Virus record (IMG/VR): IMGVR_UViG_3300032285_003860
Source of the DNA: a virus
DNA length: 64,000 bases
Reading direction: 5' to 3' (one strand)
Position 1 is the first letter of the stretch. Each line of letters begins with the position of its first letter. Below the pieces are notes generated by a model. That model did no database searches. It was not told the origin of the DNA and was given only the letters and a program-made list of their open reading frames with translations. Below, piece after piece: positions 631-38,112 of this stretch. Both the position numbers and the translations under genes were made by a program.

Positions 631-1445
631 TCTATTAACTCTTTTATTCCATTTTTTATATCTATTTTTTGCACAAAACCCATCTTTTTTATCTTTTCGC
701 AATCTAAAACCATATCTTTTGTCTGTACTATTTTATGGAAATTTGACGCTTCTATAGGAGTAATTTTACTCGTAGACCCTGTTTCTTTTATTATAAAGTC
801 AATAATTTCTCTAAAGTTTTGTGGAATTCCGCTCCCTATATTTATTATCTGATTGTGGTCTGAATTATTAATACATAAATTGATTGCATTGCATACATCA
901 GAGACATGCATATAATCTCTTACAAATTGGCCATCATTATATAATTCTATATCTTCTTTATTTTTTATTTTTTTGACAAGATACTGTAACGCATTTTTTT
1001 GTTTAGATATTCCTTTGTCATTCTTACCGTAAACATTACATAGTCGAAGTATTCTATATTTTATATTAAACGTTGCGCAATAGCTTATAATTAAATCTTC
1101 TGCGCATTTTTTTGTTATACTATAAAAACCTTTTGGATTACAGCAAAAATCTTCCTTCGCTGGTAAATCAACATTTCCATAAACAAACCAGCTGCTTATA
1201 AAATTAAAAGTAATATCTTTGTCTTTGCAGTGACTTAATACTTTTAATAATTTAATTAAATTTGTATTTACATCTTTGTAGATATCATCGAATACATGAT
1301 AATTATGAGTGGTGCTAATCATGTATAGCACATCTTTAAATAAGGGAATATCGCCTGCCCTGTTGTGTATATGGGTAGACTCAGGGTACAGATTATAATA
1401 ATTGCTACCTATAAATCCTGTGCCGCCAAACAAGTCAACTTTCAT
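627..1445 (-). CDS. NAD-dependent epimerase/dehydratase (extended SDR)
   Basis: GGTGFIG Rossmann motif, YSITK catalytic YxxxK, LRLCNVYG, RDYMHVSD. Confidence 0.92.
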   Translation of the reverse strand: MKVDLFGGTGFIGSNYYNLYPESTHIHNRAGDIPLFKDVLYMISTTHNYHVFDDIYKDVNTNLIKLLKVLSHCKDKDITFNFISSWFVYGNVDLPAKEDFCCNPKGFYSITKKCAEDLIISYCATFNIKYRILRLCNVYGKNDKGISKQKNALQYLVKKIKNKEDIELYNDGQFVRDYMHVSDVCNAINLCINNSDHNQIINIGSGIPQNFREIIDFIIKETGSTSKITPIEASNFHKIVQTKDMVLDCEKIKKMGFVQKIDIKNGIKELIE

Positions 1446-2736: not shown

Positions 2737-2750
2737 AATTTATTATTGTT

Positions 2751-3476
2751 TTATCTATTAAATCCAATTTTATCGTGATTAACAAGGAATTTTAGATATA
2801 TTTTTTCTGCCCCTTTGTTTATTTTCTCTGAATATTCTGGACTTCTGTTCTCATAATCATAAGTATAATTAACCAAAAGCTTTGGAATATTATAAAATTG
2901 ATAATGTTTCACTGCTCTGCTAAATAAATCATAATCTTCGCTAACACAAGAATCGTCATATCCCCCGCATTTAGTCAATATTCTTTTGTTAAAAATTAAA
3001 GATGGGTGAGCCATTGGGTTGTTTCCAATATGATAACTGTGAAGAATTTGTTCGTGTGTTTCTGGATAAAAAACTTCTTTGACCCCATCTTTTGTATGAA
3101 AGAACATGCCTGTTCCGCAAACATCAATTTTATTTTCAATGACGAATGGCAGTTGAATTTCTATCTTATTTAATAGCCATTCATCATCACAGTCAAGAAT
3201 TGAAAAATAATCACAATCAGTGATTTTCATTGCTGTAAAAAGACTAGTATTTCTTCCTGCCACTAATCCTTTTTCTGGGCTTTTTGCATAAATTATATTT
3301 TCATACTCCGATACAACTTCTAAAAGGTTGTCTGTCGAGGCGAGATCATTTACTATAACTATTTTATAATCAAACATACCCTTTTTAAAGGCTGTTTGAT
3401 TAACTATAGAATCAAGAGCTTTTTTTATTATTCCTGCTCCGTTTTTCACCGTCATTAAGATTGCAATTGTTTCCAT
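2751..3476 (-). CDS. Glycosyltransferase family 2
   Basis: VNDLASTD, GLVAGRN, LDCDD (DxD), SEDYDL motifs. Confidence 0.88.
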   Translation of the reverse strand: METIAILMTVKNGAGIIKKALDSIVNQTAFKKGMFDYKIVIVNDLASTDNLLEVVSEYENIIYAKSPEKGLVAGRNTSLFTAMKITDCDYFSILDCDDEWLLNKIEIQLPFVIENKIDVCGTGMFFHTKDGVKEVFYPETHEQILHSYHIGNNPMAHPSLIFNKRILTKCGGYDDSCVSEDYDLFSRAVKHYQFYNIPKLLVNYTYDYENRSPEYSEKINKGAEKIYLKFLVNHDKIGFNR

Positions 3477-3479
3477 TTT

Positions 3480-4088
3480 TTATAATAGTTCGTCTAATTT
3501 AAAGTCTTTTCTTTTAAAAATCGCGCAAAACACTCCTTCGCTATCGTAAATGTTATGAAGATTTAAATAACAAAAAAAGTCAAAATTGTTCTTGGAAAAA
3601 GTCTTTACCCACGTTTTTTTACATTTCCTATTTATGTGCGTTGGATCTTTTTCTGAGATTTCCAATACAAATTTTGCGTTATCTTCAAGCGGGACAGGTA
3701 TTCTTACGAGAACAAAATTAGATTTTAAATTGGTTAAAATTTCATCGACTTCCTTCTCTGGAATATGCTCTAAAACATCTAAAAAGAAAACAAGATTTTG
3801 CTGAGGTATATTTTTTGGGTCAAAAACAGTAAAACCCTTTGATTCTGTGACTGACCTTGCCCAATTTGATATTTCTACTCCATGGATTTTATTATAACCA
3901 ATCTGTTTAAATCCCTGCATTAAAAAACCGACGGCACAACCATAATCAAGAATTGGTTGATTTTTAAAATCAAGACCCATGCTATCAAAAAAAGAATCTA
4001 TTTCTCTTGCAAGCTTGGCATATCTTTGGCCTCTAGAAAGATAATTTTTATAATTATTTGTCTCGTAGTATTCTTTTTCAAAGTTCAT
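3480..4088 (-). CDS. Class I SAM-dependent methyltransferase
   Basis: ILDYGCAVG motif I, GVEIS, DVLEHI. Confidence 0.88.
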   Translation of the reverse strand: MNFEKEYYETNNYKNYLSRGQRYAKLAREIDSFFDSMGLDFKNQPILDYGCAVGFLMQGFKQIGYNKIHGVEISNWARSVTESKGFTVFDPKNIPQQNLVFFLDVLEHIPEKEVDEILTNLKSNFVLVRIPVPLEDNAKFVLEISEKDPTHINRKCKKTWVKTFSKNNFDFFCYLNLHNIYDSEGVFCAIFKRKDFKLDELL

Positions 4089-5191
4089 GGGAAGTTTTTG
4101 TCTGGCATATCATTACATACGGTATGCAATAGTTTATTATTAAATTTATAATAGCAGTATTTACAAGTACTTTCCCAATTTTCGCCATTATTATTTTTTA
4201 TTTCGTATGGGAAACCTTTTTCTTTAAAGTTTTCGTTTATTTTATTCCATGTGACAATAATGTCTTCAACCTTGCATAAAGAATAGTCTAAATCATAATT
4301 TCTTTTATTCAAAACATGACTTGTGCATGTATAGACATGGTATTCATTTTTGCCATGTGGGTCTGGGGCAACATAGGGGCGAATCATTCCTACATAGCAT
4401 CCATCATTAAATGGAGAGTCATCATATCCAATGTCTTTGATAAAGATTTTATTAAATTTGTCTACTTCATCAATCGTTTCTTGAAATTCCTGTCTTACAC
4501 TTGCGTTGTTTCCTTTTATTAAGCAATTTCCTGCTATTCTAACGAATTTAATTTCTGGATTCAATTCAAGGACTTTTGCAATTCTTCTAATTGTCTCTGC
4601 GTTCGTGGGCGTATATTTCTTTCCAATTCTTGTTCCTGTTCCAGATTCTTCATCATAAATAATGTAAGAAAGACCCATTTTATTGGCTGGAAAAGAACAA
4701 AAGTCATAGTCTTCTGGATTAAATCCTTCGTCTAGCTTAATTAAACTTATTCTTATCCAAGAAATTTTATCAAAGTTTTCTTTTTTAATTTTGTTTAGTT
4801 TTAGGGTATTAGTAATTATTCCAATAAAATAACCAAGTTCATTTGCATATTCTATGATTGAATTAATATCATCACCTGTGTCTTTGTCTCTATAAATCAA
4901 AGGCTCTCCTCCGCCGGTTATTTCTACGCTTTTTGCACCCAGCAACTTGAAATCTCTTAGAGTTTGCTTTATTTTTTCAAATGGCATATAGCTCTTAAGT
5001 GGTCTTTCTGCAACCGAGCAAAATGGGCAACCGCTTGAGCAAGCCTCAATTGGCGCGAGTTGAATAGTTATAGGTTTAAAAGTTCTATCTTTTTGAATTG
5101 AATGCAGAACGTCTGTATGTTGAAGAAGCTTATCTCCCCAAGTGCTGTATTTTTGGGTAAGGTCTTGATGTTTTTTTGTTTTGTTTTCCAT
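4085..5191 (-). CDS. Radical SAM protein with C-terminal SPASM/twitch-like cysteines
   Basis: CSSGCPFC (CxxxCxxC), ITGGGEP, C-terminal CY...C...CKYC. Confidence 0.9.
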   Translation of the reverse strand: MENKTKKHQDLTQKYSTWGDKLLQHTDVLHSIQKDRTFKPITIQLAPIEACSSGCPFCSVAERPLKSYMPFEKIKQTLRDFKLLGAKSVEITGGGEPLIYRDKDTGDDINSIIEYANELGYFIGIITNTLKLNKIKKENFDKISWIRISLIKLDEGFNPEDYDFCSFPANKMGLSYIIYDEESGTGTRIGKKYTPTNAETIRRIAKVLELNPEIKFVRIAGNCLIKGNNASVRQEFQETIDEVDKFNKIFIKDIGYDDSPFNDGCYVGMIRPYVAPDPHGKNEYHVYTCTSHVLNKRNYDLDYSLCKVEDIIVTWNKINENFKEKGFPYEIKNNNGENWESTCKYCYYKFNNKLLHTVCNDMPDKNFP

Positions 5192-5194
5192 ATT

Positions 5195-5989
5195 CTATTT
5201 TATTAGATAAGCAAATTTATCTCTATTTTTCATTACATAACTCGGTAGGCCAATTGAATCGTCTTTAACGATATGAAATCCATTTCTATCATAAGGGTCT
5301 CTCAATGAGTCTCTTCTTTCTTTTATTTTCTCGACAGACAGGTATTCTGGAGAATGATACTCGCTATGAGAGCTTGCGAGCATTTTATAAGCAATTTGAT
5401 TTTCATCTCCTAAATGAGAAAAATGCCAGCCAGAATTGTAAATTCTATTAAGATGGTCTTTTGATTGCCTTACGTCATTAAAGTTTTTATTTTTTAAATT
5501 TTTATATCTATCGCAAACAACAGAAGGAAACCAATAATGATTATCTGGAGACAATATCGGAGTATTCATATACCAGAAAAATCCTCTTAGAGTTAAAACG
5601 CATGGGAAAGTTTTAAGTTCTGATACGGATTTTGCCGTAGGAATTTCATCTAAATCAGAAAACATAATGATATCTTCGTCATCGCAATGAGCCAAGGCAT
5701 TTTTTACCGCATCTCTTTGAAGAAACATTAATGAATGCCTATGTTCGTCACCTTTGTTATAAAATTCTGAAGAAGGGTTCTGCAAACCTTTCTCAAGTTT
5801 TAAATAAATAATCTTATCTTTGTATTTTTGATATATTTCTGAATTTTCAAGATAGAATGGCTTTTTTACATTAGAAACAGTAATATCTGATTCGCAAATA
5901 ACAAATTTATCAACTACATCTTTTAGTTCTTCAATTCTTATTTCTAAAATGTGGGTTTCGTTTAAAAAGTTAAAACAATCGTAAATCAT
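5195..5989 (-). CDS. Glycosyltransferase family 17 (beta-1,4-GlcNAc transferase-like)
   Basis: IYDCFNFLNE..ILEIR, VDKFVICES, SDLDEIP, GWHFS motifs. Confidence 0.88.
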   Translation of the reverse strand: MIYDCFNFLNETHILEIRIEELKDVVDKFVICESDITVSNVKKPFYLENSEIYQKYKDKIIYLKLEKGLQNPSSEFYNKGDEHRHSLMFLQRDAVKNALAHCDDEDIIMFSDLDEIPTAKSVSELKTFPCVLTLRGFFWYMNTPILSPDNHYWFPSVVCDRYKNLKNKNFNDVRQSKDHLNRIYNSGWHFSHLGDENQIAYKMLASSHSEYHSPEYLSVEKIKERRDSLRDPYDRNGFHIVKDDSIGLPSYVMKNRDKFAYLIK

Positions 5990-5993
5990 ATTT

Positions 5994-6836
5994 TTATTCA
6001 GTTATGATGTTCCAAAAATCAAATGATGCAGTATTGCATTTATTTAAAAACTCTTTCATTCCGAGTCTTTTCATTTCATGGATACATCCTATCTTATCAT
6101 TAATCATCATTTCCATTCCTGATAAAGCTGCCTCTCCTGCGGCTCTACAAAAGGGTTCATCTATTCTAGGGAAATATATAAAAGTTTTATATTTATTATA
6201 TAGTTCGGGCATCTTTTCGTGAGATACTTTTCCAAGGAATTCTATATTTGGAATGCTTGTGGCTAAATGTTCAAAAATCTTTTCTCCCCATCCAGCGACG
6301 ACAAATTGTATTTGCGGATTATCTATAGCGTATCTAAAAAAGTCAAAAGTGCCTTTGAATTCGTGCATGAATCCAACGTAAAGGACTTTATCTTCCCTAT
6401 TATTCTTATTATCAAAAAAGATAGATGAATCTATTGGGTCTGGAACTATTCTAACGTTAATAAAATAATCTCCGTAATGATTTTTAAATAAATTATAATG
6501 ATATTCAGTTAGGAAGAATGCATTTTTGCAGCTTGTGTAAAGCTGATGTCTTTTAGACTGAGAAAGATATCTATTCATATCATGCTCGACTCTTGAATGA
6601 GCTTTTGCAGAAGATAAATAATCAATTATAAATGGATATTTCTGGTTTAAAAATTCAAGATTTGCAGAAATCACATGGTCGTAAGAGTTTTTAAGCAATT
6701 CTGGGTCTGAATCACAAGTAAAATGAGTTATATTTAAACCCATCTGCCTTCCCTTTTTAATAATAATATCATCGCTTCTTTGAGCGCCTCCAGGACTATG
6801 CAAGATTGAAAAATCAGAAACCCAAAGAATGTTCAT
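5994..6836 (-). CDS. Glycosyltransferase family 4
   Basis: GGAQ N-terminal motif, VLYVG....KG, FLGKV, EPFCRAAGEAALSG. Confidence 0.82.
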   Translation of the reverse strand: MNILWVSDFSILHSPGGAQRSDDIIIKKGRQMGLNITHFTCDSDPELLKNSYDHVISANLEFLNQKYPFIIDYLSSAKAHSRVEHDMNRYLSQSKRHQLYTSCKNAFFLTEYHYNLFKNHYGDYFINVRIVPDPIDSSIFFDNKNNREDKVLYVGFMHEFKGTFDFFRYAIDNPQIQFVVAGWGEKIFEHLATSIPNIEFLGKVSHEKMPELYNKYKTFIYFPRIDEPFCRAAGEAALSGMEMMINDKIGCIHEMKRLGMKEFLNKCNTASFDFWNIITE

Positions 6837-6846
6837 ATTTTATATA

Positions 6847-7692
6847 TTATCTATTCCACGAAATAGCGTGGTTTTTAATTAGACCATCATTCTTGTCTAT
6901 ATATTCAAAAATAAATTCTATTTGTGGTATATTGGTACTCTTTGCTTCCCTGAGTTTTCCAAAAAGATCTTTTAATGATACTGTTTTGGGTATATTTATT
7001 TCTGCGAGTTGCTGTTTTAAGGCAGAGTATCCTGTAACTTTCTTAATATAAATATGTGACTTAGATTGTTTTAATAATTTAAATATTTGAGTAAAAAATA
7101 TATCATTCTGACTCTTTGTATAAGAAGTTAGATTTCCAAATCTAACAGATTTAAATGCCACTGCGCCATCAAAATAATCTAATCCAAAATTAAAAACATC
7201 ATCGCATTCAAATTTTATTCCATCTTCATCTAAGAAATACCCATAAAAAGTAAAAATTTCTTCATTAGCTTTTATATCTTTTGAGGCAGTAAATATAAAT
7301 GTTTTATCTTTTATTTTCCACTCAGCATTGTTTCCGCTGTTTGAAGTATTGTAGATTGGTCCAAATCCCAATGGTAAAACTGTATAAACTACTTCTTCTC
7401 CATCTGGATGATATTTTGGCATCCATTTAAAATAATAATCTTCCGCATCTTTAAAACCAAGATTCTTTCGAAGATTTTCTATGAATTTTTCTTTTGGATG
7501 AAGAAGGTTTTGAGATTTTAATGTATCAATAATTGGCTTTAAAGATAATACTTGCTGTGGGAGAACAATAAATGGCGACTCTTCTAGCGTCTCTCCATTT
7601 TGAATATCCTCTTTTGCAAATACCCCAAATCCTTCTATTGGAGAATTTCTTACTTCTATTTTAGATGAGAAAATCAGTTTGTTTTTTTGCAT
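6847..7692 (-). CDS. SET-domain protein (putative lysine methyltransferase) with C-terminal extension
   Basis: SPIEGFGVFAKEDI..GE (motif I), LGFGPIYNTS (NHS equivalent), ASKDIKANEEIFTFYG. Confidence 0.82.
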   Translation of the reverse strand: MQKNKLIFSSKIEVRNSPIEGFGVFAKEDIQNGETLEESPFIVLPQQVLSLKPIIDTLKSQNLLHPKEKFIENLRKNLGFKDAEDYYFKWMPKYHPDGEEVVYTVLPLGFGPIYNTSNSGNNAEWKIKDKTFIFTASKDIKANEEIFTFYGYFLDEDGIKFECDDVFNFGLDYFDGAVAFKSVRFGNLTSYTKSQNDIFFTQIFKLLKQSKSHIYIKKVTGYSALKQQLAEINIPKTVSLKDLFGKLREAKSTNIPQIEFIFEYIDKNDGLIKNHAISWNR

Positions 7693-8020
7693 GAGGATGT
7701 TTCTTTCCAGTTCTCTGTTCGTATTTCAATTCTGCATTTCTACGCATTTCATCTTGACCAGAGTTGCCTCCTCTTTTTTCAGAAAGCTCTGCGCTTTTAT
7801 CCCACAATTGTCCTAAAGAATAATTTTTTTGCCTAGTCTTTCTTACAAAGTCATTTGGGTCGGTTAAACTTAACTGTGTATCTATTGAAGCCTGTGGTTT
7901 ACAAAATTCTCTTTGCCATTTTACACCTTTTTCGTCTATATAAATATGTTCATCGCTCATAGCTTGAACGACTTCTATGATTTTTCCATTTTCTGGATGA
8001 GAGAATGTATAAATAGGCAT
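7661..8020 (-). CDS. FmdB-like small protein (Cys-less zinc-ribbon variant)
   Basis: MPIYTF...G..IEV.Q.MSD N-terminus characteristic of the FmdB family. Confidence 0.55.
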   Translation of the reverse strand: MPIYTFSHPENGKIIEVVQAMSDEHIYIDEKGVKWQREFCKPQASIDTQLSLTDPNDFVRKTRQKNYSLGQLWDKSAELSEKRGGNSGQDEMRRNAELKYEQRTGKKHPHAKKQTDFLI

Positions 8021-8023
8021 ATC

Positions 8024-8719
8024 TTAAATAGTTATATCAAAATTATCTGAAATTGGTACGCGAGACGCAATGAATAAAGCCCTTGATTTTTCCTTTATTG
8101 GAATAGAAAAACAATTTACAAAACCTTTTATACCCATAGCTTTTTTAAAGTCAATAAATTCTTCTTCATTACACGAGACTTCTCCACAAATAGATTTAAC
8201 ATTCTTTTCTATTAGCTTAGAATTTGTAAGGATTTCTCTTTCGGCATATCCTATATTTAATTTCATTATATCAATTTCTTCTCCATAGCAGTATTCTGTT
8301 AAAATAGTATCTAAGTTATGGCATTGACATGGATAATAATTTTCCTGTTCTTCTTTAATTAAACCAATGGAAGACAAGTCGAAATAGATATTATCAACAA
8401 ATTCTGGAGTAGAAAATCTACCAATTATTGACTCTGTATATATTCCCAGTTGAAAGGGAGTAACTCTCCCAACAAAATCTAATTTATAACAATTTTGAAG
8501 CAATGACTTAAAATTATCTAAAAATGGCTCGATTGCATATACTTTTCTTGCTCCAAGCGTGAGGGCAGTAAATGAGAAAAAACCAGCGTGCGCGCCAATA
8601 TCCAAGAATACTTTTGAATTGTCTTTGTTTGCTTTTAATTTGTAATAATTATTAAAAAAGACATTGTCAAAAATACCTTGGTCATTGGTAAAGCTTCTGG
8701 TTATAATTTCTGGGGTCAT
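8024..8719 (-). CDS. FkbM-family methyltransferase
   Basis: FLDIGAHAGFFS, VYAIEP, IDIMKLNIGYAE (variant of KIDIEGAE). Confidence 0.82.
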   Translation of the reverse strand: MTPEIITRSFTNDQGIFDNVFFNNYYKLKANKDNSKVFLDIGAHAGFFSFTALTLGARKVYAIEPFLDNFKSLLQNCYKLDFVGRVTPFQLGIYTESIIGRFSTPEFVDNIYFDLSSIGLIKEEQENYYPCQCHNLDTILTEYCYGEEIDIMKLNIGYAEREILTNSKLIEKNVKSICGEVSCNEEEFIDFKKAMGIKGFVNCFSIPIKEKSRALFIASRVPISDNFDITI

Positions 8720-8721
8720 AT

Positions 8722-9816
8722 TTATGATACCGAGGCAATAACATTTTCAACAAACTTTTCTTTAGAGAATGTGGTTTGAAGGGTTTTACCTGCTTCGTTT
8801 TGCCTATTAGATAAAACTTTTCTACAGGCTAATTCACAGGCAGAGATAAAATCTGCTTCATTAAAGTCATAAATATTACCTTGATTGAAAGGCTGGCCCT
8901 TTTGAAAAAACATTCCATCATACGCTGGAATTTTTTCAGAAGGATTTACCCAAGTTACCATTTCGTCCGTTGCCCAGTCTTTATAGGTATGAGCATTAAG
9001 CAATACAGCGTGTTTACCTATTGCAACACTTTGGAATTCTGGAAGCGCCCATCCTTCTCCACCAGAAAGACCAAGAACAACATCTCCACTATTAAGGAAA
9101 TCATTGTACATTGAATTTTCATTCATTGATGGATAGAAACTGACATTGAAAGGTTTTTCTCCGCCAAGGATTCCACCAATAATCTGCTGATTCTGTTGCT
9201 CAGATAAAAATCCATTATAAATTGCGCACTGAAGTGAATAATTAGGTTTGTTTCCAAATTTTTTTATCCAAGACTGAATAACCTTGGCATGATTTTTCCT
9301 TTTCTCAAATTTACCGCAAAGATTAAAAACAACTCTTTCATCATTAAAGAACTTCTTTTTGACGGAAAAAAAGTTAAAAGAATCAAAAGCTAAAGGCAAA
9401 TATCCTGTTTCTACTCCAGCATTTTTAAATGCTTCGCAGCTATATTTTGAAGAAAAATACGTTTTATTATTTTTTGCAATATTGACTTCTACTTTTGTTG
9501 GCTCGTCCAATTCATGAAAAGACAACAAGCTCTGGCTTTTTGAAAAAGACTCTAAAGAACCATTTAAATGCCAAAGCTTGAAAATTGGGATATCTCTCGT
9601 ATAATTTTCAAGGCCATTTATGATTTTAGAATTAATCCAGTCGCTAAATTCTTTTGTTACTGATTGACTAGATAAATCCACTGGACCAATAGGAAATAAA
9701 TAAATATCATGCTTTATTCCGGTTGACTTTTCTTGTTCAAAGATTGTGCGGATTAAAAGTGATGATACTTGACCAAAACTAACTCTATTGAGTGGTAAAT
9801 TTAATGCTAATTTCAT
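8722..9816 (-). CDS. Glycosyltransferase family 4 (phage type)
   Basis: GKFEKRKN, SGGEGWALPEFQSVAIG. Confidence 0.8.
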   Translation of the reverse strand: MKLALNLPLNRVSFGQVSSLLIRTIFEQEKSTGIKHDIYLFPIGPVDLSSQSVTKEFSDWINSKIINGLENYTRDIPIFKLWHLNGSLESFSKSQSLLSFHELDEPTKVEVNIAKNNKTYFSSKYSCEAFKNAGVETGYLPLAFDSFNFFSVKKKFFNDERVVFNLCGKFEKRKNHAKVIQSWIKKFGNKPNYSLQCAIYNGFLSEQQNQQIIGGILGGEKPFNVSFYPSMNENSMYNDFLNSGDVVLGLSGGEGWALPEFQSVAIGKHAVLLNAHTYKDWATDEMVTWVNPSEKIPAYDGMFFQKGQPFNQGNIYDFNEADFISACELACRKVLSNRQNEAGKTLQTTFSKEKFVENVIASVS

Positions 9817-9825
9817 ATTTAAATT

Positions 9826-9856
9826 AAAAAAAAGGAGGAGCGGTTGCTCCTCCTTT
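9826..9856 (-). terminator. Intrinsic terminator after SSB-like gene
   Basis: AAAGGAGGAGC-GGTT-GCTCCTCCTTT stem with U-tract on the minus strand. Confidence 0.8.
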
Positions 9857-9866
9857 ATTGGACAGC

Positions 9867-10172
9867 TTAGATAAGCTCTTCTGCTTCTTCCTGCTGAACT
9901 GGAGCGGCGACAGTCTTTACAACCTTTTTAATTGGTGCTTGCGCTGCCACAGGGGCGGCACTGGCTCTAGGCTTAGACAAATACATTCTCAAATCAGGAT
10001 GATTGTCTGCCTTCTTAAATTTATTAGAGAAGATGACGACCTGAATGTCTTCATTGCCTTCTGGGAGAGCGGAACGCTTAATTGTGCCAGACAAGAACTT
10101 CTGTCCCTTGCCTTCCTTCTTCCACAATGCGCCAAGCTCAATTTGCTCCGACTTAGTATTAGTTTGTTCCAT
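9867..10172 (-). CDS. DUF736-like single-stranded DNA-binding protein
   Basis: IELGALWKK..G.KFLSG, N..K..DNHPD.R.Y motifs; acidic C-terminal tail EEAEELI. Confidence 0.6.
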   Translation of the reverse strand: MEQTNTKSEQIELGALWKKEGKGQKFLSGTIKRSALPEGNEDIQVVIFSNKFKKADNHPDLRMYLSKPRASAAPVAAQAPIKKVVKTVAAPVQQEEAEELI

Positions 10173-19754: not shown

Positions 19755-20273
19755 ATGCCTTACAAAAATCCAGAGCAAAAAGCTGCCTATGCCGCGAGGT
19801 ATAGAGAGACAAATAGAAAAAAAGCAAATACTTATGCCAAGCAGTATCGCATAGAAAATAAGGAGATAGTTGTTTCTAAAGTCAAAGCATGGAGGCAACA
19901 TAATCCTAATTGGGAAAGAGTTTCAGGTTACAATATAAAAAGGAACGCCAGTAGAAAAAAACGCTATAATACCAATATTCTGTATCGTTTGAAAGCTATT
20001 TACCGCGCCAATTTGACTCGTTATGTTTATCTAAAAAATGGCAAACACACCGATGAATTACTAGGATGCTCGATTGAGGAATTAAAAAATTATTTGACTT
20101 CAAAATTTCAAAAAGGAATGACTTGGGGGAATTATGGCAAGGGATGGCACATTGACCATATTGAACCATTATGCAGAGCAAAAACTTATAAAGAATTTGA
20201 GACTCTTTCTCATTTCACCAATTTACAACCACTATGGGCAGAGGATAATTTATCTAAAGGAAATAAGTTTTGA
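19755..20273 (+). CDS. HNH homing endonuclease (GMTWxNYG type)
   Basis: LLGCSIEEL, GMTWGNYG, WHIDHIEP, NLQPLWAEDNLSKG. Confidence 0.88.
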   Translation: MPYKNPEQKAAYAARYRETNRKKANTYAKQYRIENKEIVVSKVKAWRQHNPNWERVSGYNIKRNASRKKRYNTNILYRLKAIYRANLTRYVYLKNGKHTDELLGCSIEELKNYLTSKFQKGMTWGNYGKGWHIDHIEPLCRAKTYKEFETLSHFTNLQPLWAEDNLSKGNKF

Positions 20274-21383: not shown

Positions 21384-22010
21384 ATGGAACAATTTTTTTT
21401 AGACAATTCCAATAAAATTTATTATTTAATTTCTGTTTTTACGGCAGTTGTCACTTTTGTAGGTTTTTTATCTAAATATTTAAGAAAGATAATAATTAAA
21501 ATTAGAGAAAGAAACGCTAGAGTGGAGGAAATCCACAATAAAGTAGAAAAAATCTTTGAAGAAATTACCCCAAACCACGGCTCCTCAATAAAAGATAAGA
21601 TAAATTCATTAGATAAACGAATGGATAAAGTAGACGAAAATCTTGTTCTAAATAACAAATTAACTGAAAAAATATTTTACAGACAAAGATGGATATTAGA
21701 TAATCAAGCCGCAGCAGTTTTTGAAAGTGATGTTAATGGAAAATGTATCTGGGCAAATGTTCATTATTTAAAATTAGTTCAAAGAGACATGGCTTTTATA
21801 CTTGGCAATGGATGGAAAAATATTATTCATCCAGATGATAGAGAAAGAGTCATAATTAATTGGGATCGTTGCGTAGAAGATGGGATTGACGCAGAAGATA
21901 CATACAGAATCATTGATATTGAAGGAAGAGTTTATAGGGTTTTCTGTTCTGCTACCAAAACAGAAGGTAATGGATACATTGGCTCAATAAAAGTGCTTGA
22001 TAACGAGTAA
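21384..22010 (+). CDS. Membrane-anchored PAS-domain protein
   Basis: N-terminal TM, coiled coil with PNHGSSIKD, then PAS: VFESDVNGKCIWAN...ILGNGWKNIIHPDDRERV...YRI. Confidence 0.85.
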   Translation: MEQFFLDNSNKIYYLISVFTAVVTFVGFLSKYLRKIIIKIRERNARVEEIHNKVEKIFEEITPNHGSSIKDKINSLDKRMDKVDENLVLNNKLTEKIFYRQRWILDNQAAAVFESDVNGKCIWANVHYLKLVQRDMAFILGNGWKNIIHPDDRERVIINWDRCVEDGIDAEDTYRIIDIEGRVYRVFCSATKTEGNGYIGSIKVLDNE

Positions 22011-22057: not shown

Positions 22058-22615
22058 ATGGAGCAGGAAAATAGAAGCCGCACTTATAAAAGGCGCACCA
22101 ATATAACAATAAATTGTTCTGGGTGCGGTAAATCTTTCGAAAGAATAGAATACGAATTTGAAAGAAAATCTGCGCAAGGACAAACAAAATTCTTTTGTAC
22201 TGAAAGCTGCGCTAAAAAATCAATTGGATTGGCAAGGATAAACGAATTTAGTCCATTTAAAATAATTTTTGCGGCATCAAAAAGTGGTGCAAAAAAGAAA
22301 AAACTAGAATTTAATTTGACCCTAATTGAATTGAAAAAGAAATGGGACGAACAAAAAGGAATTTGCCCCTATTCTAAAAAGAAAATGGTTTTACCCACAA
22401 GTGCTTCCAAAAAAACTGTTATACCTTCACTAAAATCTGCCTCTTTAGACAGAATAGATTCTTCAAAGGGTTATACATTGGATAATATAGAATTTGTTAC
22501 CAGATTTGTAAATTTAGGAAAAAATACATATTCAGGAGAAGATGTTCATAGTTTTTTAAAAGAAATGGTTGAAGAGTGGAATCGTAACAAAATTGACTCA
22601 CTGCCAAACATATAA
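22058..22615 (+). CDS. HNH/endonuclease VII-like homing endonuclease
   Basis: CSGCGK..FC..SC zinc finger; QKGICPYS; SLDRIDSSKGYTLDNIEFV...VN..K. Confidence 0.82.
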   Translation: MEQENRSRTYKRRTNITINCSGCGKSFERIEYEFERKSAQGQTKFFCTESCAKKSIGLARINEFSPFKIIFAASKSGAKKKKLEFNLTLIELKKKWDEQKGICPYSKKKMVLPTSASKKTVIPSLKSASLDRIDSSKGYTLDNIEFVTRFVNLGKNTYSGEDVHSFLKEMVEEWNRNKIDSLPNI

Positions 22616-22635
22616 AGCGTGTAAGTTAAGATAGA

Positions 22636-23358
22636 ATGAAATATCTTAGCGTATTTATATCAGACACCCACATTGGAAGCAAAAATACTAATATAAAGAA
22701 GCTTTTGTCTTTTTTAAAAGAAGTAGAATGCGAAAACTTATTTATCGTTGGAGATTTTATTGATGGATGGGAATTAAAATCCAAATGGCGTTGGAAAAAT
22801 GACTATAACACGCTCTTGCAAAAACTCTTAAGAAAGAGTCGCAAAGGAACAAAAATATACCTATTGATTGGAAATCACGATGATTTCCTTTTTCCTTTTA
22901 AAGATACAGAATTTGGCAATATATCCATACTGCGCGATTATGTTCATGTTACCGCAAATAAGAAAAAATGTTTAGTTATTCATGGCGACCAGTTTGATGG
23001 CATAATTAAATATGCAAAATGGTTGCAACACATTGGCTCTCACCTCTATAATTTAATCATTGACCTAAATACCCTAATCAATAGATTAGCTAGAAAATTT
23101 GGCAAAACATATAGCTTTGCAAAAGCAATAAAACAAAACACAAAAGCCGCATTAAGTTTTATAAACAAATTTGAGCAATGCGTAATTGATGATGCAAAAA
23201 AGCATAACGCAGAAATTGTGATTTGCGGTCATGTTCATACCCCTTGTCATAAAAAAATAGAAGGCATTGAATATTTTAATTGTGGTTCTTGGCAGGAAGA
23301 TGAATTTCATGCTGTGGTAGAGACTCAAGATGGAAAATTAAAACTAATTGATTTATGA
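22636..23358 (+). CDS. plcP: PlcP/LpxH2-like metallophosphoesterase (phospholipase C)
   Basis: FISDTHIGS, VGDFIDGW, QKLLRKSRKGT, GNHDDFL, HGDQFD, ICGHVH, NCGSW: the PlcP/LpxH2 signature rather than canonical LpxH. Confidence 0.8.
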   Translation: MKYLSVFISDTHIGSKNTNIKKLLSFLKEVECENLFIVGDFIDGWELKSKWRWKNDYNTLLQKLLRKSRKGTKIYLLIGNHDDFLFPFKDTEFGNISILRDYVHVTANKKKCLVIHGDQFDGIIKYAKWLQHIGSHLYNLIIDLNTLINRLARKFGKTYSFAKAIKQNTKAALSFINKFEQCVIDDAKKHNAEIVICGHVHTPCHKKIEGIEYFNCGSWQEDEFHAVVETQDGKLKLIDL

Positions 23359-24395
23359 AATGCGTATTTATTATTCAAGGAGAAGGCAGAGGGCATTCGA
23401 CCCAAGCAATAGCGTTAGCGCAAATGCTAAAAGAACTTGGGGTAGAAGTTATTGCAGCATATATTGGTAAAAATCATATTGGACGTAACCATGATTGGGT
23501 ATTTAAAGAAATTGGAGTTGATGAGAATTATTTTTATAGCCCCAATTTTGTTTACAAAAACAACGAAGTGTCATTAAAAAGAACTGCTTTTAAATTCATT
23601 AAAAATATTTTTCAAATAAGAAAATCAATAAAACATCTCAAAAATGAACTTAAACAAATCAATCCAGATTTTGTGGTCAATTTTTATGAGCCACTTGCCC
23701 CTTTTGCTAAATCTGGCTTACAGATTCCTACTGTAACCATAGGGCATCAATTTTTAATTGACCATCCAAGTTATCCGCAGCAATTACCAATGCAAAGGAA
23801 ATTAATCAGCCTTTTTAACAAATTAGTATCCTACCATAGCACTAAAGTAATAGCCCTTAGCTTTTATCCTTTAGTTGGTCAATACAAACACTATATCGCT
23901 CCTCCTCTTTTAAGAGAAGAAGTATTAAAAGCAAAACCAAAAACTATTTTCAATAAAGTTGTTGCGTATGTAATTAATCCAATTTTTGTTCATAGTATCA
24001 CTCAACAAGCATTTTGTTATTTAAAATATAAATTCACAATTTATAACGAATTATACGAACACAAAGGATTTAATTTTCAATCTAAGAAAATTTCCCCAGC
24101 TTTTGTTGATGATTTATTATCTGCCGAATATATTGTAACATCGGGGGGTTTTGAAACAATTTCAGAAGCTCATTATCACGAAAAAAAGATTTTAGCCGTG
24201 CCTGTTAAAAATCATGCAGAACAAACCCTCAATACTATAGATGCATCAGAGAGAGGAATCATATTAACAAATAATGATTATGATTTAAGTAAACTGCTTT
24301 TAAAAAATAATAGATTTCAAAAATCGCAATTTTCAAAAGAAGAATATAAAGAATGGTATATTAGATTCTTTAAAAACTTTATCAAAAATATTTGA
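23355..24395 (+). CDS. GT-B glycosyltransferase (MJ1255/VC2487-like, GT28-related)
   Basis: QGEGRGHSTQA, PDFVVNFYEPL, IGHQ, PPLLR, SGGFETISEA, PVKNHAEQ..N; ATGA-coupled to plcP. Confidence 0.82.
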   Translation: MKCVFIIQGEGRGHSTQAIALAQMLKELGVEVIAAYIGKNHIGRNHDWVFKEIGVDENYFYSPNFVYKNNEVSLKRTAFKFIKNIFQIRKSIKHLKNELKQINPDFVVNFYEPLAPFAKSGLQIPTVTIGHQFLIDHPSYPQQLPMQRKLISLFNKLVSYHSTKVIALSFYPLVGQYKHYIAPPLLREEVLKAKPKTIFNKVVAYVINPIFVHSITQQAFCYLKYKFTIYNELYEHKGFNFQSKKISPAFVDDLLSAEYIVTSGGFETISEAHYHEKKILAVPVKNHAEQTLNTIDASERGIILTNNDYDLSKLLLKNNRFQKSQFSKEEYKEWYIRFFKNFIKNI

Positions 24396-24443: not shown

Positions 24444-24472
24444 TTGACAAAATTTTAACGAGTTGATATACT
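24444..24472 (+). promoter_or_regulatory. Sigma70-type promoter of tRNA cluster 1
   Basis: TTGACA-N17-TATACT. Confidence 0.8.
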
Positions 24473-24718: not shown

Positions 24719-25090
24719 TTAATCAGCGTGAAGTTCTGCGTGGCAATTAGCGCAAATTAACTCGCATTTTTCGGCTTCTTTATAAGCAGCAGCTTTTCCT
24801 TTTAAAGCAAATAATTTACTAACTAAAGCTTCTTTTTTTAAAGGGTCTTTATGGTGAAAATGTAAAGCATCAAAACACTTATCATAAGAACACCTAGAGC
24901 ATTTTCCCCCGTAAAGATTTTTTAATTCAAATAATTGAATTTTTCTATTTTTTCGGCGATATGCTAAAAATTTTTCTTTTGCTCCTTCGGCGCAATGATA
25001 ATTAATTGTAGCTTTTGAGCAGTTTAGTATTTTGGAAATTTCACTATAAGATTTCCCTTTTTTTCTTAATTTGAGTATTTTTTCTTTCAT
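24719..25090 (-). CDS. HTH-HNH homing endonuclease inserted in tRNA cluster
   Basis: GKSYSEISKILNCSKATI HTH; GGKCSRCSY...LHFHH...CELICANCHAELH. Confidence 0.88.
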   Translation of the reverse strand: MKEKILKLRKKGKSYSEISKILNCSKATINYHCAEGAKEKFLAYRRKNRKIQLFELKNLYGGKCSRCSYDKCFDALHFHHKDPLKKEALVSKLFALKGKAAAYKEAEKCELICANCHAELHAD

Positions 25091-28941: not shown

Positions 28942-28993
28942 AAAATAGCATTAATGTTTGACATATAAAGCAGTGTCTGATATAGTATTTTAT

Positions 28994-29629
28994 ATGTCGG
29001 AATTTATGAATCGGAATAGCGTATTGGTTCTAAATGCTTTATATCAACCAATAGGAACAGTTTCTCCAAAGAAAGCCCTTGTCGCCCTCAATTCAACAAT
29101 TGATGGAAATCAATATTCTTCTAAAGCCATTGACATTATCTATGCCAAAAATCCAGATGGCACTTTCGATTTAGAAAATGTTATAACTTTTCAAAATTAT
29201 AATTTTGAAGAATGGTTGATGGTTGATTTTCGAGAAGGTCTTGACCAAATAGTTCATACATCAAGACTACAAATAAGATGCCCCACTATCATAATGACTA
29301 ACTATAGCAAAATGCCTATGCGCAAATTTAGAGCAACAAAAACGCTGCTTTATGAAATGCAAAAAGGCATCTGCGGTTATTCAGGCAAGAAAATGCCAAT
29401 GAAAGCGATGAGTATAGAGCATAAACGCCCCAAAAGTAAGGGCGGCGGCGAAACTTTTCAAAACTTGATGGTAGTTGACAAAGATATAAATAGCAGGAGA
29501 GGAAATAAACCCTTGAAGGAGGTCGGTTTAAAAGCTCTTTTTAATCACAGAGAGCCGCAACCATTGCCTGTCGCTTACGCAATAAAAAGCGCAGTTCATC
29601 CAGATTGGAATTATTTTATTGCAAAATAA
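28994..29629 (+). CDS. HNH endonuclease (McrA/HNH_5-like)
   Basis: VLVLNALYQPIG, QKGICGYSG, SIEHKRPKSKGG..TFQNL.....N..RGNK; the TTG 'start' at 28958 is the -35 box. Confidence 0.85.
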   Translation: MSEFMNRNSVLVLNALYQPIGTVSPKKALVALNSTIDGNQYSSKAIDIIYAKNPDGTFDLENVITFQNYNFEEWLMVDFREGLDQIVHTSRLQIRCPTIIMTNYSKMPMRKFRATKTLLYEMQKGICGYSGKKMPMKAMSIEHKRPKSKGGGETFQNLMVVDKDINSRRGNKPLKEVGLKALFNHREPQPLPVAYAIKSAVHPDWNYFIAK

Positions 29630-37200: not shown

Positions 37201-38112
37201 ATGAATTTATCCCTCTGCTGCATCTCCCTGCGTCTCCAAGAACAAGGTTATAAGTTTCAGACAATGACTTATACCCGATTTGCCTCCCTACCCCGCAAAG
37301 AAGCACTAGAAATTCTTTCCGCACGAATCCTCAATAATTTTGAGGTAACAGGAGAAATAATCCAATACTGTCATAATTCTGGCATCAAAGGCTATCGCCT
37401 TTCTTCTGGGCTAACTCCCGTTATCAATCATCCAAGTGTAAATATAAGTCTATCAGACTTACCTAATTCTGATAAGATTTTTAAGGAAATCACTAATGTC
37501 AAAAAAATTATCAAAGATACTGGAATCCGCATATCTGCTCATCCTAGTGAGTATATTTCTCTTACCAATACTAACAGCAATGTTATTAGCAACTCTATTC
37601 GTGACTTGGAGCAACACGGCGAGATTTTTGACCTCCTTGACCTGCCGCAATCGCATTGGTCGCCACTAAATATCCATTGCCGCCAAGATGGTGAACCAGA
37701 TAAAGTTTTTCAAGAGTTTGCAAAAAACTATGCTAAACTGTCTGATAGTGTTAAAAAGCGTCTTGTTATAGAAGTAAATGATAACAAAGATGGCACATGG
37801 CATATCCCTAACCTTATCGAATATTTTTACGATAAACTTGGTTTGCCAATTACCTTCGACTCTTTGCATCAAAAATTTTGCCACGGCTCCTTGACAGAAG
37901 AACAAGCATTTAAAAAAGCATACAGCACTTGGAGCGAGACCCCTTTGTTTCATTATAGCGAAGGCGTTGACGGCACACGCAAACACGCTGATTATGCTAT
38001 TGGAGTGCCAAATAATTATGGTATGGAAGTTTATTGGGACTGCGAACTAAAGCAGAAAGACCTTGCCATTGAAAAGATTTTAGCCAAAAATGCTTCGCAT
38101 CAATCCATTTAA
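37201..38112 (+). CDS. uvsE: UV-damage endonuclease
   Basis: YRLSS, RISAHPSEYISL, NIH, RLVIE, PITFDSLH, PLFHYSE, KHADY, ELKQKD. Confidence 0.93.
   Translation: MNLSLCCISLRLQEQGYKFQTMTYTRFASLPRKEALEILSARILNNFEVTGEIIQYCHNSGIKGYRLSSGLTPVINHPSVNISLSDLPNSDKIFKEITNVKKIIKDTGIRISAHPSEYISLTNTNSNVISNSIRDLEQHGEIFDLLDLPQSHWSPLNIHCRQDGEPDKVFQEFAKNYAKLSDSVKKRLVIEVNDNKDGTWHIPNLIEYFYDKLGLPITFDSLHQKFCHGSLTEEQAFKKAYSTWSETPLFHYSEGVDGTRKHADYAIGVPNNYGMEVYWDCELKQKDLAIEKILAKNASHQSI

What the first reader, a model, noticed from the sequence alone, without database searches (positions are those of the whole stretch)
22636..24395. Phage-encoded PlcP phospholipase plus glycosyltransferase: host membrane lipid-remodelling AMG pair
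Seen: translationally coupled PlcP-signature phosphoesterase (GW...QKLLRK.RKGT...HGDQFD) and a GT-B glycosyltransferase behind a GTGTAA promoter. Known: bacterial PlcP cleaves phospholipids to diacylglycerol, and neighbouring glycosyltransferases make phosphorus-free glycolipids under P starvation. Inference: the phage mines membrane phosphate for DNA synthesis, or alters the membrane before lysis or against superinfection. I do not know of this as a described phage module.
Basis: partly seen in the sequence, partly recalled or inferred. Interest (0 to 1): 0.75.

Follow-up and report, generated by a model that had tools for sequence, protein, structure and literature searches.

The report
Phage PlcP phospholipase plus lipid glycosyltransferase
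A large uncultured lake phage carries a true relative of the bacterial enzyme PlcP, which cuts the phosphate head off membrane lipids. It is translationally coupled to a sugar-adding enzyme, so the phage probably turns host phospholipids into phosphorus-free glycolipids, a trait I found described in no paper.

Summary
Two ORFs, 22636-23358 (240 aa) and 23355-24395 (346 aa), overlap by ATGA in a phage that has rIIA/rIIB, ribonucleotide reductase, ligase and clamp loader.

ORF1 belongs to the PlcP family, not to LpxH:
- It scores 65 bits against an LpxH cut-off of 134.
- It has GNHD where LpxH has GNRD, and it lacks the LpxH insert.
- It nests in a clade with Pelagibacteraceae and Rhizobium proteins, apart from LpxH (support 100).
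- In that clade, 17-18 of 20 downstream neighbours are GT4 (Agt-like) glycosyltransferases.

ORF2 is a high-confidence GT-B enzyme (PF13528, GT1/GT28-like), not Agt. The same PlcP-then-GT pair, often with the same 4-nt overlap, lies adjacent in 45 of 201 sampled Bacteroidota genomes, in a Verrucomicrobiota MAG and in several phage lineages with different flanks.

IMG/VR holds at least 533 PlcP relatives. Of the best 80, 43 have Agt nearby. Viromics papers list such genes as "lpxH".

There is no Pho box. A GTGTAA motif lies 11 nt upstream of the start; its role is untested.

The chemistry (phospholipid to DAG to glycosyl-DAG) and the benefit (freeing phosphorus) are inferred, not shown.

This scan has already noted phage PlcP+GT modules on other DNA (80 notes, at least 69 genomes). 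What is new here is the partner GT family.

The parts
22619..22624 (+). GTGTAA motif in the 20-nt gap before ORF1; candidate phage-specific promoter element. A TAAGAT (-10-like) follows it, 4 nt before the ATG.
   Evidence: locate it; 6 of 26 window copies lie 8-18 nt upstream of starts, against 0.63 expected; no sigma-70-type promoter directly upstream of ORF1. Function untested.
22636..23358 (+). PlcP-family metallophosphoesterase (predicted Mn-dependent phospholipase C), 240 aa, with an LpxH-like helical lid at about residues 117-189.
   Evidence: LpxH models below cut-off; all metal-binding motifs invariant; tree; GNHD versus GNRD and other discriminators; model pLDDT 84.5; top 25 fold matches are all LpxH.
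23355..23358 (+). ATGA stop/start overlap (translational coupling).
   Evidence: The same junction is in phage relatives L003, L100 and L101. 4-nt overlaps also occur in Bacteroidota loci L103, L107, L108, L111 and L112.
23355..24395 (+). GT-B glycosyltransferase, 346 aa, Pfam Glyco_trans_1_3 (TIGR00661-like, GT1/GT28 clan). Predicted inverting lipid glycosyltransferase with an invariant GxGH (H14) loop and a C-terminal E..EQ nucleotide-sugar motif.
   Evidence: invariant G11 G13 H14 E271 E289 Q290; pLDDT 93.8; YojK Z 25.0, sterol glucosyltransferase UGT51 Z 23.4, MurG Z 21.9, MGD1 Z 19.0.

Best explanation
The two genes form a phage-borne lipid-renovation cassette.

ORF1 is a PlcP-type, metal-dependent phospholipase C. 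It would cleave host glycerophospholipids (PE, PG or PC) into diacylglycerol plus a phospho-head group. ORF2 is made in fixed proportion through the ATGA overlap. It is a membrane-associated inverting GT-B enzyme that would transfer a sugar from a UDP-sugar to that diacylglycerol, giving a phosphorus-free glycosyl-diacylglycerol that keeps the bilayer intact.

The net effect during infection is release of membrane-bound phosphorus, after host phosphatases act on the head group, for phage nucleotide and DNA synthesis. The cell membrane composition also changes.

What is shown: family membership of ORF1, the fold and clan of ORF2, the conserved coupling of the two in bacteria and phages, and purifying selection.

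What is inferred: both substrates, the product, the timing, and the benefit.

The pair has no Pho box and no sigma-70-type promoter of its own, but it has a GTGTAA element. It is therefore probably driven by the phage programme rather than by the host's phosphate-starvation regulon.
For: 1. ORF1 is PlcP, not LpxH.
- LpxH equivalog models score 65.2 bits (cut-off 134) and 57.3 bits (cut-off 190).
- Betaproteobacterial genomes hold a true LpxH (250-260 bits) plus a separate paralogue (46-51 bits). That paralogue is the one ORF1 matches at 41-43% identity.
- Rhizobium, Hyphomicrobium and Pelagibacteraceae genomes hold only the paralogue.
- In the tree, LpxH is split off by a branch of length 4.79 with support 100. 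The phage protein nests among the Pelagibacteraceae, Rhizobium and Bradyrhizobium proteins.
- The phage protein shares GNHD, GDxIDGW, QK(L/I)LRK(S/A)RKGT and CGHxH with that family. The three LpxH sequences have GNRD, a 10-residue insert after HGD, and HGHTH.

2. That family is the published PlcP.
- 17-18 of 20 genes immediately downstream in GTDB genomes are GT4 (Agt-like) and 2 are MGDG-synthase type. This is the plcP-agt arrangement described in PMC4796936, PMC8528852 and PMC9239053.
- ORF1's identities to these proteins (38-48%) lie in the range between validated PlcPs (46-51%; 35% for the P-induced Dokdonia gene) given in those papers.
- A natural 713-aa PlcP-GT4 fusion exists (P0206).

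3. The ORF1-ORF2 coupling is ancient and selected.
- In a sample of 201 Bacteroidota genomes, 47 have both genes. In 45 of those the GT lies directly downstream on the same strand (my reading of the tables), often with a 4-nt overlap.
- The same pair is in a Limisphaerales MAG (L011), in Emticicia and in an Algoriphagus-type contig.
- PMC4796936 Supplementary Table S2 lists Bacteroidetes plcP loci with an 'Uncharacterised glycosyltransferase'.
- In phages the pair recurs with unrelated flanking genes (L099, L100, L101).
- The two gene trees agree within the phage clade.

4. ORF2 is plausibly a lipid glycosyltransferase. Its nearest folds all use hydrophobic or lipid acceptors: YojK, sterol glucosyltransferase, MurG and the galactolipid synthase MGD1. 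The catalytic His loop and the UDP-sugar motif are invariant.

5. Link to phosphorus.
- Bacterial plcP is induced by phosphate starvation.
- The homologue in Pelagibacter phage Mosig sits next to a phosphate-binding transporter gene.
- Arithmetic on published numbers: phospholipid P of 0.54-2.63 million atoms per cell equals about 1.6-7.7 genomes of a 170-kb phage (0.34 million P atoms each).
Against: - No enzyme activity, lipid product or expression datum exists for this protein, or for any member of the ORF2 family.
- The flavobacterium tested in PMC4796936 (Dokdonia MED134) was reported to accumulate aminolipids, with no glycolipid mentioned. The product of the Bacteroidota-type GT is therefore open.
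- I could not fetch an experimentally characterised PlcP sequence (SMc00171, PA3219, MED193_17359, PB7211_983). Membership rests on their synteny signature, on organisms of the same families, and on published identity ranges.
- No Pho box precedes the pair, and no pstS was found in the window. Nothing in this locus ties it directly to phosphate status.
- If GTGTAA marks late genes, as a first-stage note on the neighbouring window suggests, expression might come late for feeding DNA synthesis.
- Five of 14 close Bacteroidota GT homologues have no PlcP beside them, and their flanks show no phosphate context.
- The host is unknown.
Confidence: 0.6

Rival explanations
1. Same chemistry, different benefit. 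The cassette remodels the host membrane to change its surface or physical properties (superinfection exclusion, resistance to grazers or antimicrobial peptides, control of lysis timing or membrane stability late in infection). Phosphorus release is only a by-product.
For: No Pho box and no pstS accompany the pair here. The pair sits behind a phage-type motif shared with genes of unknown function. Papers report that lipid remodelling alters phage attachment, grazing and polymyxin sensitivity (titles and abstracts: PMC9938194, PMC9457565, PMC8528852).
Against: In bacteria the pathway is tied to phosphate starvation throughout. Another phage homologue lies beside a phosphate transporter gene. The module is common in phages from aquatic samples.
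Confidence: 0.2
2. ORF2 does not use diacylglycerol. The pair acts on another phosphorylated lipid or carrier, for example a polyprenyl-phosphate-linked sugar, a carotenoid or hopanoid-type acceptor, or a sphingo- or sulfonolipid precursor of Bacteroidota. ORF1 would supply or recycle that substrate.
For: The ORF2 family has no characterised member. It scores below the TIGR00661 cut-off (87.7 against 195.9). Its best fold matches are small-molecule and sterol UGTs (Z 23-25), slightly above MurG (21.9) and MGD1 (19.0). Dokdonia was not reported to make glycolipids. Some close homologues stand without PlcP.
Against: Every characterised partner of PlcP uses the diacylglycerol that PlcP releases: Agt, Pgt, the UgtP/MGDG-synthase type and BtaAB. 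There is 96% adjacency and translational coupling with PlcP. F. johnsoniae induces a GT28-C-type glycosyltransferase and PlcP together on phosphate depletion.
Confidence: 0.12
3. ORF1 is a divergent LpxH (UDP-2,3-diacylglucosamine diphosphatase), as databases label it. With ORF2 it alters lipid A or LPS synthesis, for example to change the phage receptor.
For: The nearest solved structures are all LpxH. Public records name the homologues LpxH. The phage also carries a block of sugar-modifying genes at 1-11,400.
Against: ORF1 scores far below both LpxH cut-offs. It has GNHD instead of the LpxH GNRD and lacks the LpxH insert. It is separated from LpxH with support 100. Genomes with a true LpxH keep this family as a second gene, and sampled alphaproteobacterial genomes with no true LpxH match still have it.
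Confidence: 0.05
4. The cassette is a recently captured host fragment with no role in infection.
For: It is flanked by homing-endonuclease-like ORFs and a tRNA block, a region of gene flux.
Against: Synonymous changes far outnumber non-synonymous ones (29:1 and 26:11). A 13-14 member phage clade keeps both genes down to 61% and 43% identity. All catalytic residues are intact.
Confidence: 0.03

Closest known systems
Bacterial PlcP-Agt lipid-renovation operon (S. meliloti SMc00171; Phaeobacter MED193_17359; SAR11 HTCC7211 PB7211_983/960; P. aeruginosa PA3219/PA3218; M. trichosporium OB3b)
   Same: ORF1 falls in this family by tree, motifs and identity range. The gene order is phospholipase first with the glycosyltransferase immediately downstream. 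The predicted logic is phospholipid to DAG to glycolipid.
   Different: It is encoded by a phage. The partner is not a GT4 retaining enzyme but a GT1/GT28-like (PF13528) enzyme predicted to be inverting. There is no Pho box. ORF1 is shorter (240 aa against about 270-330) because it lacks the N- and C-terminal tails.
Bacteroidetes plcP followed by an 'uncharacterised glycosyltransferase' (PMC4796936, Supplementary Table S2: Cytophaga hutchinsonii, Fulvivirga, Microscilla, Eudoraea and others)
   Same: The two families, the order and often the 4-nt overlap are the same. The pair is found adjacent in 45 of 201 sampled Bacteroidota genomes and in a Verrucomicrobiota MAG.
   Different: The phage GT is only 28-34% identical to the cellular ones and sits on a long branch of its own. 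The phage PlcP groups with the Verrucomicrobiota copy rather than with any Bacteroidota clade. The bacterial pair itself has never been characterised.
LpxH (UDP-2,3-diacylglucosamine diphosphatase)
   Same: Same superfamily and same architecture: a calcineurin-like core plus a helical lipid-binding lid. It is the nearest solved structure.
   Different: GNHD not GNRD, no insert after HGD, below both curated cut-offs, and a separate clade.
Phage phosphate-acquisition genes (pstS, phoH and the like) and the 'LpxH' gene of Pelagibacter phage Mosig
   Same: They are host-derived genes carried by aquatic phages that bear on phosphorus supply. The Mosig homologue (39% identity) lies beside a phosphate-binding transporter gene.
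   Different: Those genes import phosphate. This cassette would free phosphorus already in the cell. Mosig and S-SRM01 carry the phospholipase without an adjacent GT.
GT1/GT28 lipid and small-molecule glycosyltransferases (MurG, plant MGD1, yeast UGT51, B. subtilis YojK)
   Same: GT-B fold, N-terminal Gly-rich loop with a catalytic His, C-terminal nucleotide-sugar motif, hydrophobic acceptors.
   Different: 9-17% identity only. No match to the MGDG_synth Pfam domain. The acceptor is unknown.

Membership tests
PlcP (phosphate-starvation phospholipase C, metallophosphoesterase) | Complete calcineurin-like metal-binding motif set (DxH, GD, GNHD/E, H, GH, GHxH) | tested here: met
   D10, H12, D40, N80, H81, D82, H116, H199 and H201 are invariant in alignments of 11 and 35 family members.
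PlcP (phosphate-starvation phospholipase C, metallophosphoesterase) | Groups with PlcP proteins and apart from LpxH in a phylogeny | tested here: met
   LpxH is separated with support 100. The phage clade nests (98) with proteins of Pelagibacteraceae, Rhizobium, Bradyrhizobium, Variovorax and Bordetella. Caveat: no experimentally characterised PlcP sequence could be fetched, and the family was recognised by its plcP-agt synteny.
PlcP (phosphate-starvation phospholipase C, metallophosphoesterase) | Adjacent gene for synthesis of a phosphorus-free lipid from diacylglycerol | tested here: met
   A glycosyltransferase overlaps the stop codon. The same pairing is adjacent in 45 of the 47 sampled Bacteroidota genomes that hold both genes. 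That this GT uses diacylglycerol is not shown.
PlcP (phosphate-starvation phospholipase C, metallophosphoesterase) | Pho box / induction by phosphate starvation | tested here: not met
   No match to the CTGTCAT-N4-CTGTCAT consensus (up to 3 mismatches) near the pair. The only good match lies inside uvdE. Only the proteobacterial consensus was tried. Expression itself is not testable here.
PlcP (phosphate-starvation phospholipase C, metallophosphoesterase) | Mn-dependent hydrolysis of PE/PG/PC to diacylglycerol | not testable with these tools
   Needs an enzyme assay or complementation of a plcP mutant.
LpxH (UDP-2,3-diacylglucosamine diphosphatase) | Score above the curated equivalog cut-offs; GNRD motif; insert after HGD | tested here: not met
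   NF003743 scores 65.2 against 134 and TIGR01854 scores 57.3 against 190.35. ORF1 has GNHD and no insert.
Agt (GT4 diacylglycerol glucosyl/glucuronosyl-transferase) | GT4 family domains (Glycos_transf_1 / Glyco_transf_4) | tested here: not met
   Glyco_transf_4 scores 23.1 bits, below its cut-off of 28.5, and there is no Glycos_transf_1 match. tblastn with two Agt homologues finds nothing in the window.
Glyco_trans_1_3 (PF13528) / MJ1255-VC2487 family (TIGR00661) | Score above the curated cut-off | tested here: met
   PF13528 scores 118.8 bits against a cut-off of 25, over the full length. The narrower TIGR00661 model is not reached (87.7 against 195.9), as is also true of the cellular partners of PlcP (98-108 bits).
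GT28 (MurG / MGDG synthase clan) | GT28 N- and C-terminal domains; fold match to MurG/MGD1 | tested here: inconclusive
   PF03033 scores 28.8 bits (cut-off 26.2), but PF04101 scores 18.8 (cut-off 22). MurG gives Z 21.9 and MGD1 Z 19.0, while GT1 UGTs score a little higher (Z 23-25).
Phage auxiliary metabolic gene | Host-type metabolic gene inside a bona fide phage genome, conserved among related phages | tested here: met
   Phage genes lie on both sides. The pair is kept in a 13-14 member phage clade and in other phage lineages. It is under purifying selection.

The most novel reading that the evidence does not exclude
Aquatic phages widely carry a complete phospholipid-to-glycolipid conversion module that surveys have filed as the LPS gene lpxH. 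In this lineage the partner is an uncharacterised, inverting GT1/GT28-like family that also follows plcP in about a fifth of sampled Bacteroidota. That would make it a fourth, undescribed class of bacterial diacylglycerol glycosyltransferase, giving beta-linked glycolipids. The phage would run it from its own promoter, forcing membrane phosphorus release whatever the host's phosphate status.
Probability: 0.35. Interest if true: 0.75.

Novelty: new variant of a known kind. Interest (0 to 1): 0.63.

Why it matters
Phosphorus limits both bacteria and phage production in many lakes and oceans. Known phage responses are import genes such as pstS. A phage that dismantles its host's phospholipids would add an internal phosphorus source worth roughly one to eight phage genomes per cell, by arithmetic on the numbers in PMC4796936. 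It would also change the membrane lipids measured in P-poor waters.

Virus surveys that count 'lpxH' under LPS biosynthesis would probably be misreading a phosphorus gene. I did not examine the sequences behind those counts.

The finding also points to the uncharacterised glycosyltransferase that follows plcP in many Bacteroidota as a testable candidate for their missing glycolipid synthase.

Tried and rejected
- Fusion check. The long open frames at G011 and G016 (581 and 544 aa) are only stop-to-stop artefacts; the genes are separate with a 4-nt overlap. A search for longer proteins found a PlcP-GT4 fusion (P0206) but no PlcP-PF13528 fusion.
- Pho box. Nothing lies near the pair, and the one 17/18 match is inside uvdE.
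- pstS in the window: not found with the Mosig protein.
- Flanks of five Bacteroidota GT homologues that lack PlcP: no phosphate-regulon context.
- Whole-window enrichment of GTGTAA: absent. Only positional enrichment holds.
- Nucleotide search of 50,697 phage records with 7 kb around the pair: no match. The GT protein matched only one unverified faecal contig there.
- Wei et al. 2018 on PlcP residues (PMC6052262) is not held, so published essential residues could not be checked one by one.
- The window has no whole genome on hand and its metagenome record could not be read further. The claim that GTGTAA marks virion genes, and hence the temporal class of the pair, could not be tested.
- Host assignment failed. 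Shine-Dalgarno motifs are almost absent (1 of 80 genes), as in Bacteroidota. But promoters look like TTGACA-N17-TATAAT close to the start codons, and the PlcP tree points to Verrucomicrobiota.
Full report
**What is there.**
The window is AT-rich (30-45% GC) and is phage DNA. It encodes rIIA and rIIB, a ribonucleotide reductase, an ATP-dependent DNA ligase and a clamp loader. It also encodes ThyX, UvdE, a sigma-70-type factor, a ferritin-like protein, six tRNAs and a tmRNA. No whole genome is held for it. Nearly identical contigs of 96-168 kb occur in four public metagenome assemblies.

The two ORFs of the finding are exactly where stated: 22636-23358 (240 aa) and 23355-24395 (346 aa), overlapping as ATGA.

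**ORF1 is a PlcP, not an LpxH.**
Pfam sees only the calcineurin-like superfamily. The two curated LpxH models score 65 and 57 bits against cut-offs of 134 and 190.

The closest cellular proteins are 38-48% identical and are labelled LpxH by annotation pipelines. Three tests separate them from LpxH.

- Paralogy. Variovorax and Bordetella genomes hold a genuine LpxH (251 and 260 bits) and, elsewhere, a second gene scoring 46-51 bits. ORF1 matches that second gene. Rhizobium, Hyphomicrobium and Pelagibacteraceae genomes hold only the second kind.
- Phylogeny. In a maximum-likelihood tree of 63 proteins, LpxH is split off by a branch of 4.79 substitutions per site with support 100. ORF1 sits inside the other family.
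- Motifs. ORF1 and all family members have GNHD, GDxIDGW, QK(L/I)LRK(S/A)RKGT and CGHxH. E. coli, Bordetella and Variovorax LpxH have GNRD, a ten-residue insert after HGD, and HGHTH.

That this family is the published PlcP follows from its genomic signature. Of 20 genes lying directly downstream in GTDB genomes, 17-18 are GT4 enzymes and 2 are MGDG-synthase-type enzymes. These are the plcP-agt and plcP-DAG-glycosyltransferase arrangements described for marine bacteria, P. aeruginosa and methanotrophs (PMC4796936, PMC8528852, PMC9239053). The loci include a Pelagibacteraceae genome.

Identities between validated PlcPs in those papers are 46-51%. The phosphate-induced Dokdonia gene is 35% similar to the rhizobial one. 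ORF1 lies within that range.

A 713-aa natural fusion of a PlcP domain with a GT4 domain exists (P0206).

The predicted structure has a confident phosphoesterase core and a less confident helical lid at residues 117-189. Its 25 best matches in the PDB are all LpxH. This fits a lipid-binding relative of LpxH for which no structure has been solved.

I could not obtain the sequence of any experimentally characterised PlcP, so orthology is inferred through these proxies.

**ORF2 is a GT-B enzyme of another family than Agt.**
It matches Pfam Glyco_trans_1_3 over its whole length (118.8 bits) and the GT28 N-terminal domain just above threshold. It does not match GT4. It stays below the cut-off of the narrower TIGR00661 model, as do its cellular relatives.

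The AlphaFold model is very confident (pLDDT 93.8). An exhaustive structural comparison gives B. subtilis YojK (Z 25.0), yeast sterol glucosyltransferase UGT51 (Z 23.4), MurG (Z 21.9) and the plant galactolipid synthase MGD1 (Z 19.0). All of these are inverting GT1/GT28 enzymes with hydrophobic or lipid acceptors.

The N-terminal Gly-rich loop with His14, and the C-terminal E271 and E289-Q290, are invariant across 44 family members. The enzyme therefore looks active. The acceptor cannot be read from sequence.

**The pair is a conserved unit in bacteria.**
The closest cellular relatives of ORF2 (28-34% identity) are in Cytophagales and other Bacteroidota. In Emticicia and in an Algoriphagus-type contig the gene lies directly behind a PlcP-family gene.

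I searched 201 genomes spread over Bacteroidota with each protein. Reading the two tables together, 47 genomes have both genes. In 45 of those the GT follows the PlcP gene on the same strand within about 100-400 bases. This holds both for a closer GT subfamily and for a more distant one.

Extracted loci show that the two ORFs often overlap by 4 nt, as in the phage. The same pair is present in a Limisphaerales (Verrucomicrobiota) MAG.

This arrangement has been seen before but never studied. Supplementary Table S2 of PMC4796936 lists Cytophaga, Fulvivirga, Microscilla, Eudoraea and others with an 'Uncharacterised glycosyltransferase' near plcP. In Flavobacterium johnsoniae, a PlcP and a GT28-C-type glycosyltransferase at separate loci are both strongly induced by phosphate depletion.

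**The pair is a conserved unit in phages.**
- ORF1 has a clade of 240-aa relatives at 61-82% identity, and ORF2 a matching clade at 43-92%.
- Where contigs were fetched, the two genes are adjacent with the ATGA junction, but the flanking genes differ (L100, L101).
- A more distant 140-kb phage contig with a B-family DNA polymerase also has the pair (L099). So do three IMG/VR contigs, one a 296-kb record rated complete.
- The two gene trees agree within the phage clade, so the genes travel together.
- Against a near-identical contig, ORF1 shows 29 synonymous and 1 non-synonymous codon changes and ORF2 shows 26 and 11.

Of the best 80, 43 have an Agt-type GT4 gene within the fetched locus, mostly directly downstream. 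Two of four long records checked have a terminase match, and one of them has terminal repeats. Some IMG/VR records may still be host fragments.

Among 50,697 deposited phage genomes, only Pelagibacter phage Mosig (39%), Synechococcus phage S-SRM01 (32%), a 595-kb uncultured phage and one unverified faecal contig carry a homologue. In Mosig the gene is annotated as a diacylglucosamine hydrolase and lies next to a phosphate-binding transporter gene.

**Regulation.**
Only 20 nt separate ORF1 from the upstream ORF (HNH-like by eye; no Pfam match). No sigma-70-type promoter lies directly upstream and no Pho box lies near.

GTGTAA sits 11 nt before the ATG. It is not over-represented in the window, but six copies lie 8-18 nt before start codons against 0.63 expected. 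These include the PAS-domain gene two genes upstream.

A first-stage note on the neighbouring window proposes GTGTAAT as a late promoter read by the phage sigma factor. I could not reach that DNA to test it.

A strong sigma-70-type promoter at 24444-24472 starts the tRNA block and bounds the unit downstream.

**Most likely mechanism.**
ORF1 cleaves host phospholipids to diacylglycerol and a phospho-head group. ORF2 glycosylates the diacylglycerol. Phosphorus becomes available once host phosphatases act on the head group, and the bilayer is kept. Using the phospholipid phosphorus contents in PMC4796936 (0.54-2.63 million atoms per cell) and 0.34 million atoms per 170-kb genome, the membrane holds about 1.6-7.7 phage genomes' worth.

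I put 0.9 on PlcP-family membership, about 0.6 on the two-step phospholipid-to-glycolipid chemistry, and less on phosphorus supply as the selected benefit rather than a membrane property.

**Novelty.**
The bacterial pathway is known. Among the held papers (Creative Commons PubMed Central and bioRxiv), I found none joining PlcP with 'auxiliary metabolic' genes. The four that mention PlcP together with phage and lipid remodelling were judged from titles and abstracts only, and appear to concern how remodelled hosts affect phages. Virome papers list 'lpxH' among LPS genes, one of them noting it in surface waters of an oligotrophic sea. I did not check whether those calls are PlcP.

This scan's own notebook already holds 80 notes on phage PlcP-plus-glycosyltransferase modules in at least 69 genomes. 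Those are unreviewed AI notes. My IMG/VR count agrees with them independently.

What this locus adds is the partner. It is not Agt or a GT2 but the uncharacterised GT1/GT28-like family of the Bacteroidota/Verrucomicrobiota operon. The pair is driven without a Pho box.

Noticed in passing
window 15062-15436 (+), motif at 15031-15036: Phage-encoded tmRNA with an unusual predicted tag ending VAAVA rather than ALAA. A GTGTAA lies 25 nt upstream of it.
   Followed up: no
whole window: Shine-Dalgarno-like 5-mers precede only 1 of 80 genes, below the background rate. TTGACA occurs within 41 nt of the start in 17 of 104 genes; for example TTGACT-N17-TATATT ends 6 nt before the uvdE ATG. This suggests many leaderless or near-leaderless mRNAs. 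The host phylum stays unresolved.
   Followed up: partly
window 1-11437 (-): A long minus-strand block of sugar-modifying genes, including an aminotransferase and at least one further glycosyltransferase. It is separate from the PlcP pair.
   Followed up: no
window 19755-20273, 22058-22615, 24719-25090 (-), 28958-29629: Several homing-endonuclease-like or HNH/HTH ORFs surround the cassette. The near-identical contig L003 has about 500 nt less between the 329-aa and 171-aa genes, so the 19755-20273 ORF looks like an insertion polymorphism.
   Followed up: partly
window 37368-37385 (+): A 17/18 match to the E. coli-type Pho box consensus lies inside the UvdE coding sequence. It is taken as chance.
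   Followed up: yes
window 21384-22010 (+): A PAS-domain protein gene two genes upstream has the same GTGTAA motif 12 nt before its start and a strong AGGAGG just upstream of its start.
   Followed up: no
P0206 (713 aa, NCBI-sourced contig of 29.5 kb): A natural fusion of a PlcP-family domain (40% identical to ORF1) with a GT4 glycosyltransferase domain, which links the two activities in one polypeptide.
   Followed up: partly
window 24444-24472 (+): A near-consensus extended -10 promoter (TTGACA-17-TG-TATACT, 11 of 12) lies just ahead of the tRNA cluster.
   Followed up: no
L010 (contig CAYPSF010000070.1): A MAG titled 'uncultured Bifidobacteriaceae' carries a PlcP-GT pair that sits on very short branches next to the Limisphaerales (Verrucomicrobiota) copy in both trees. 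The contig is probably misbinned.
   Followed up: no
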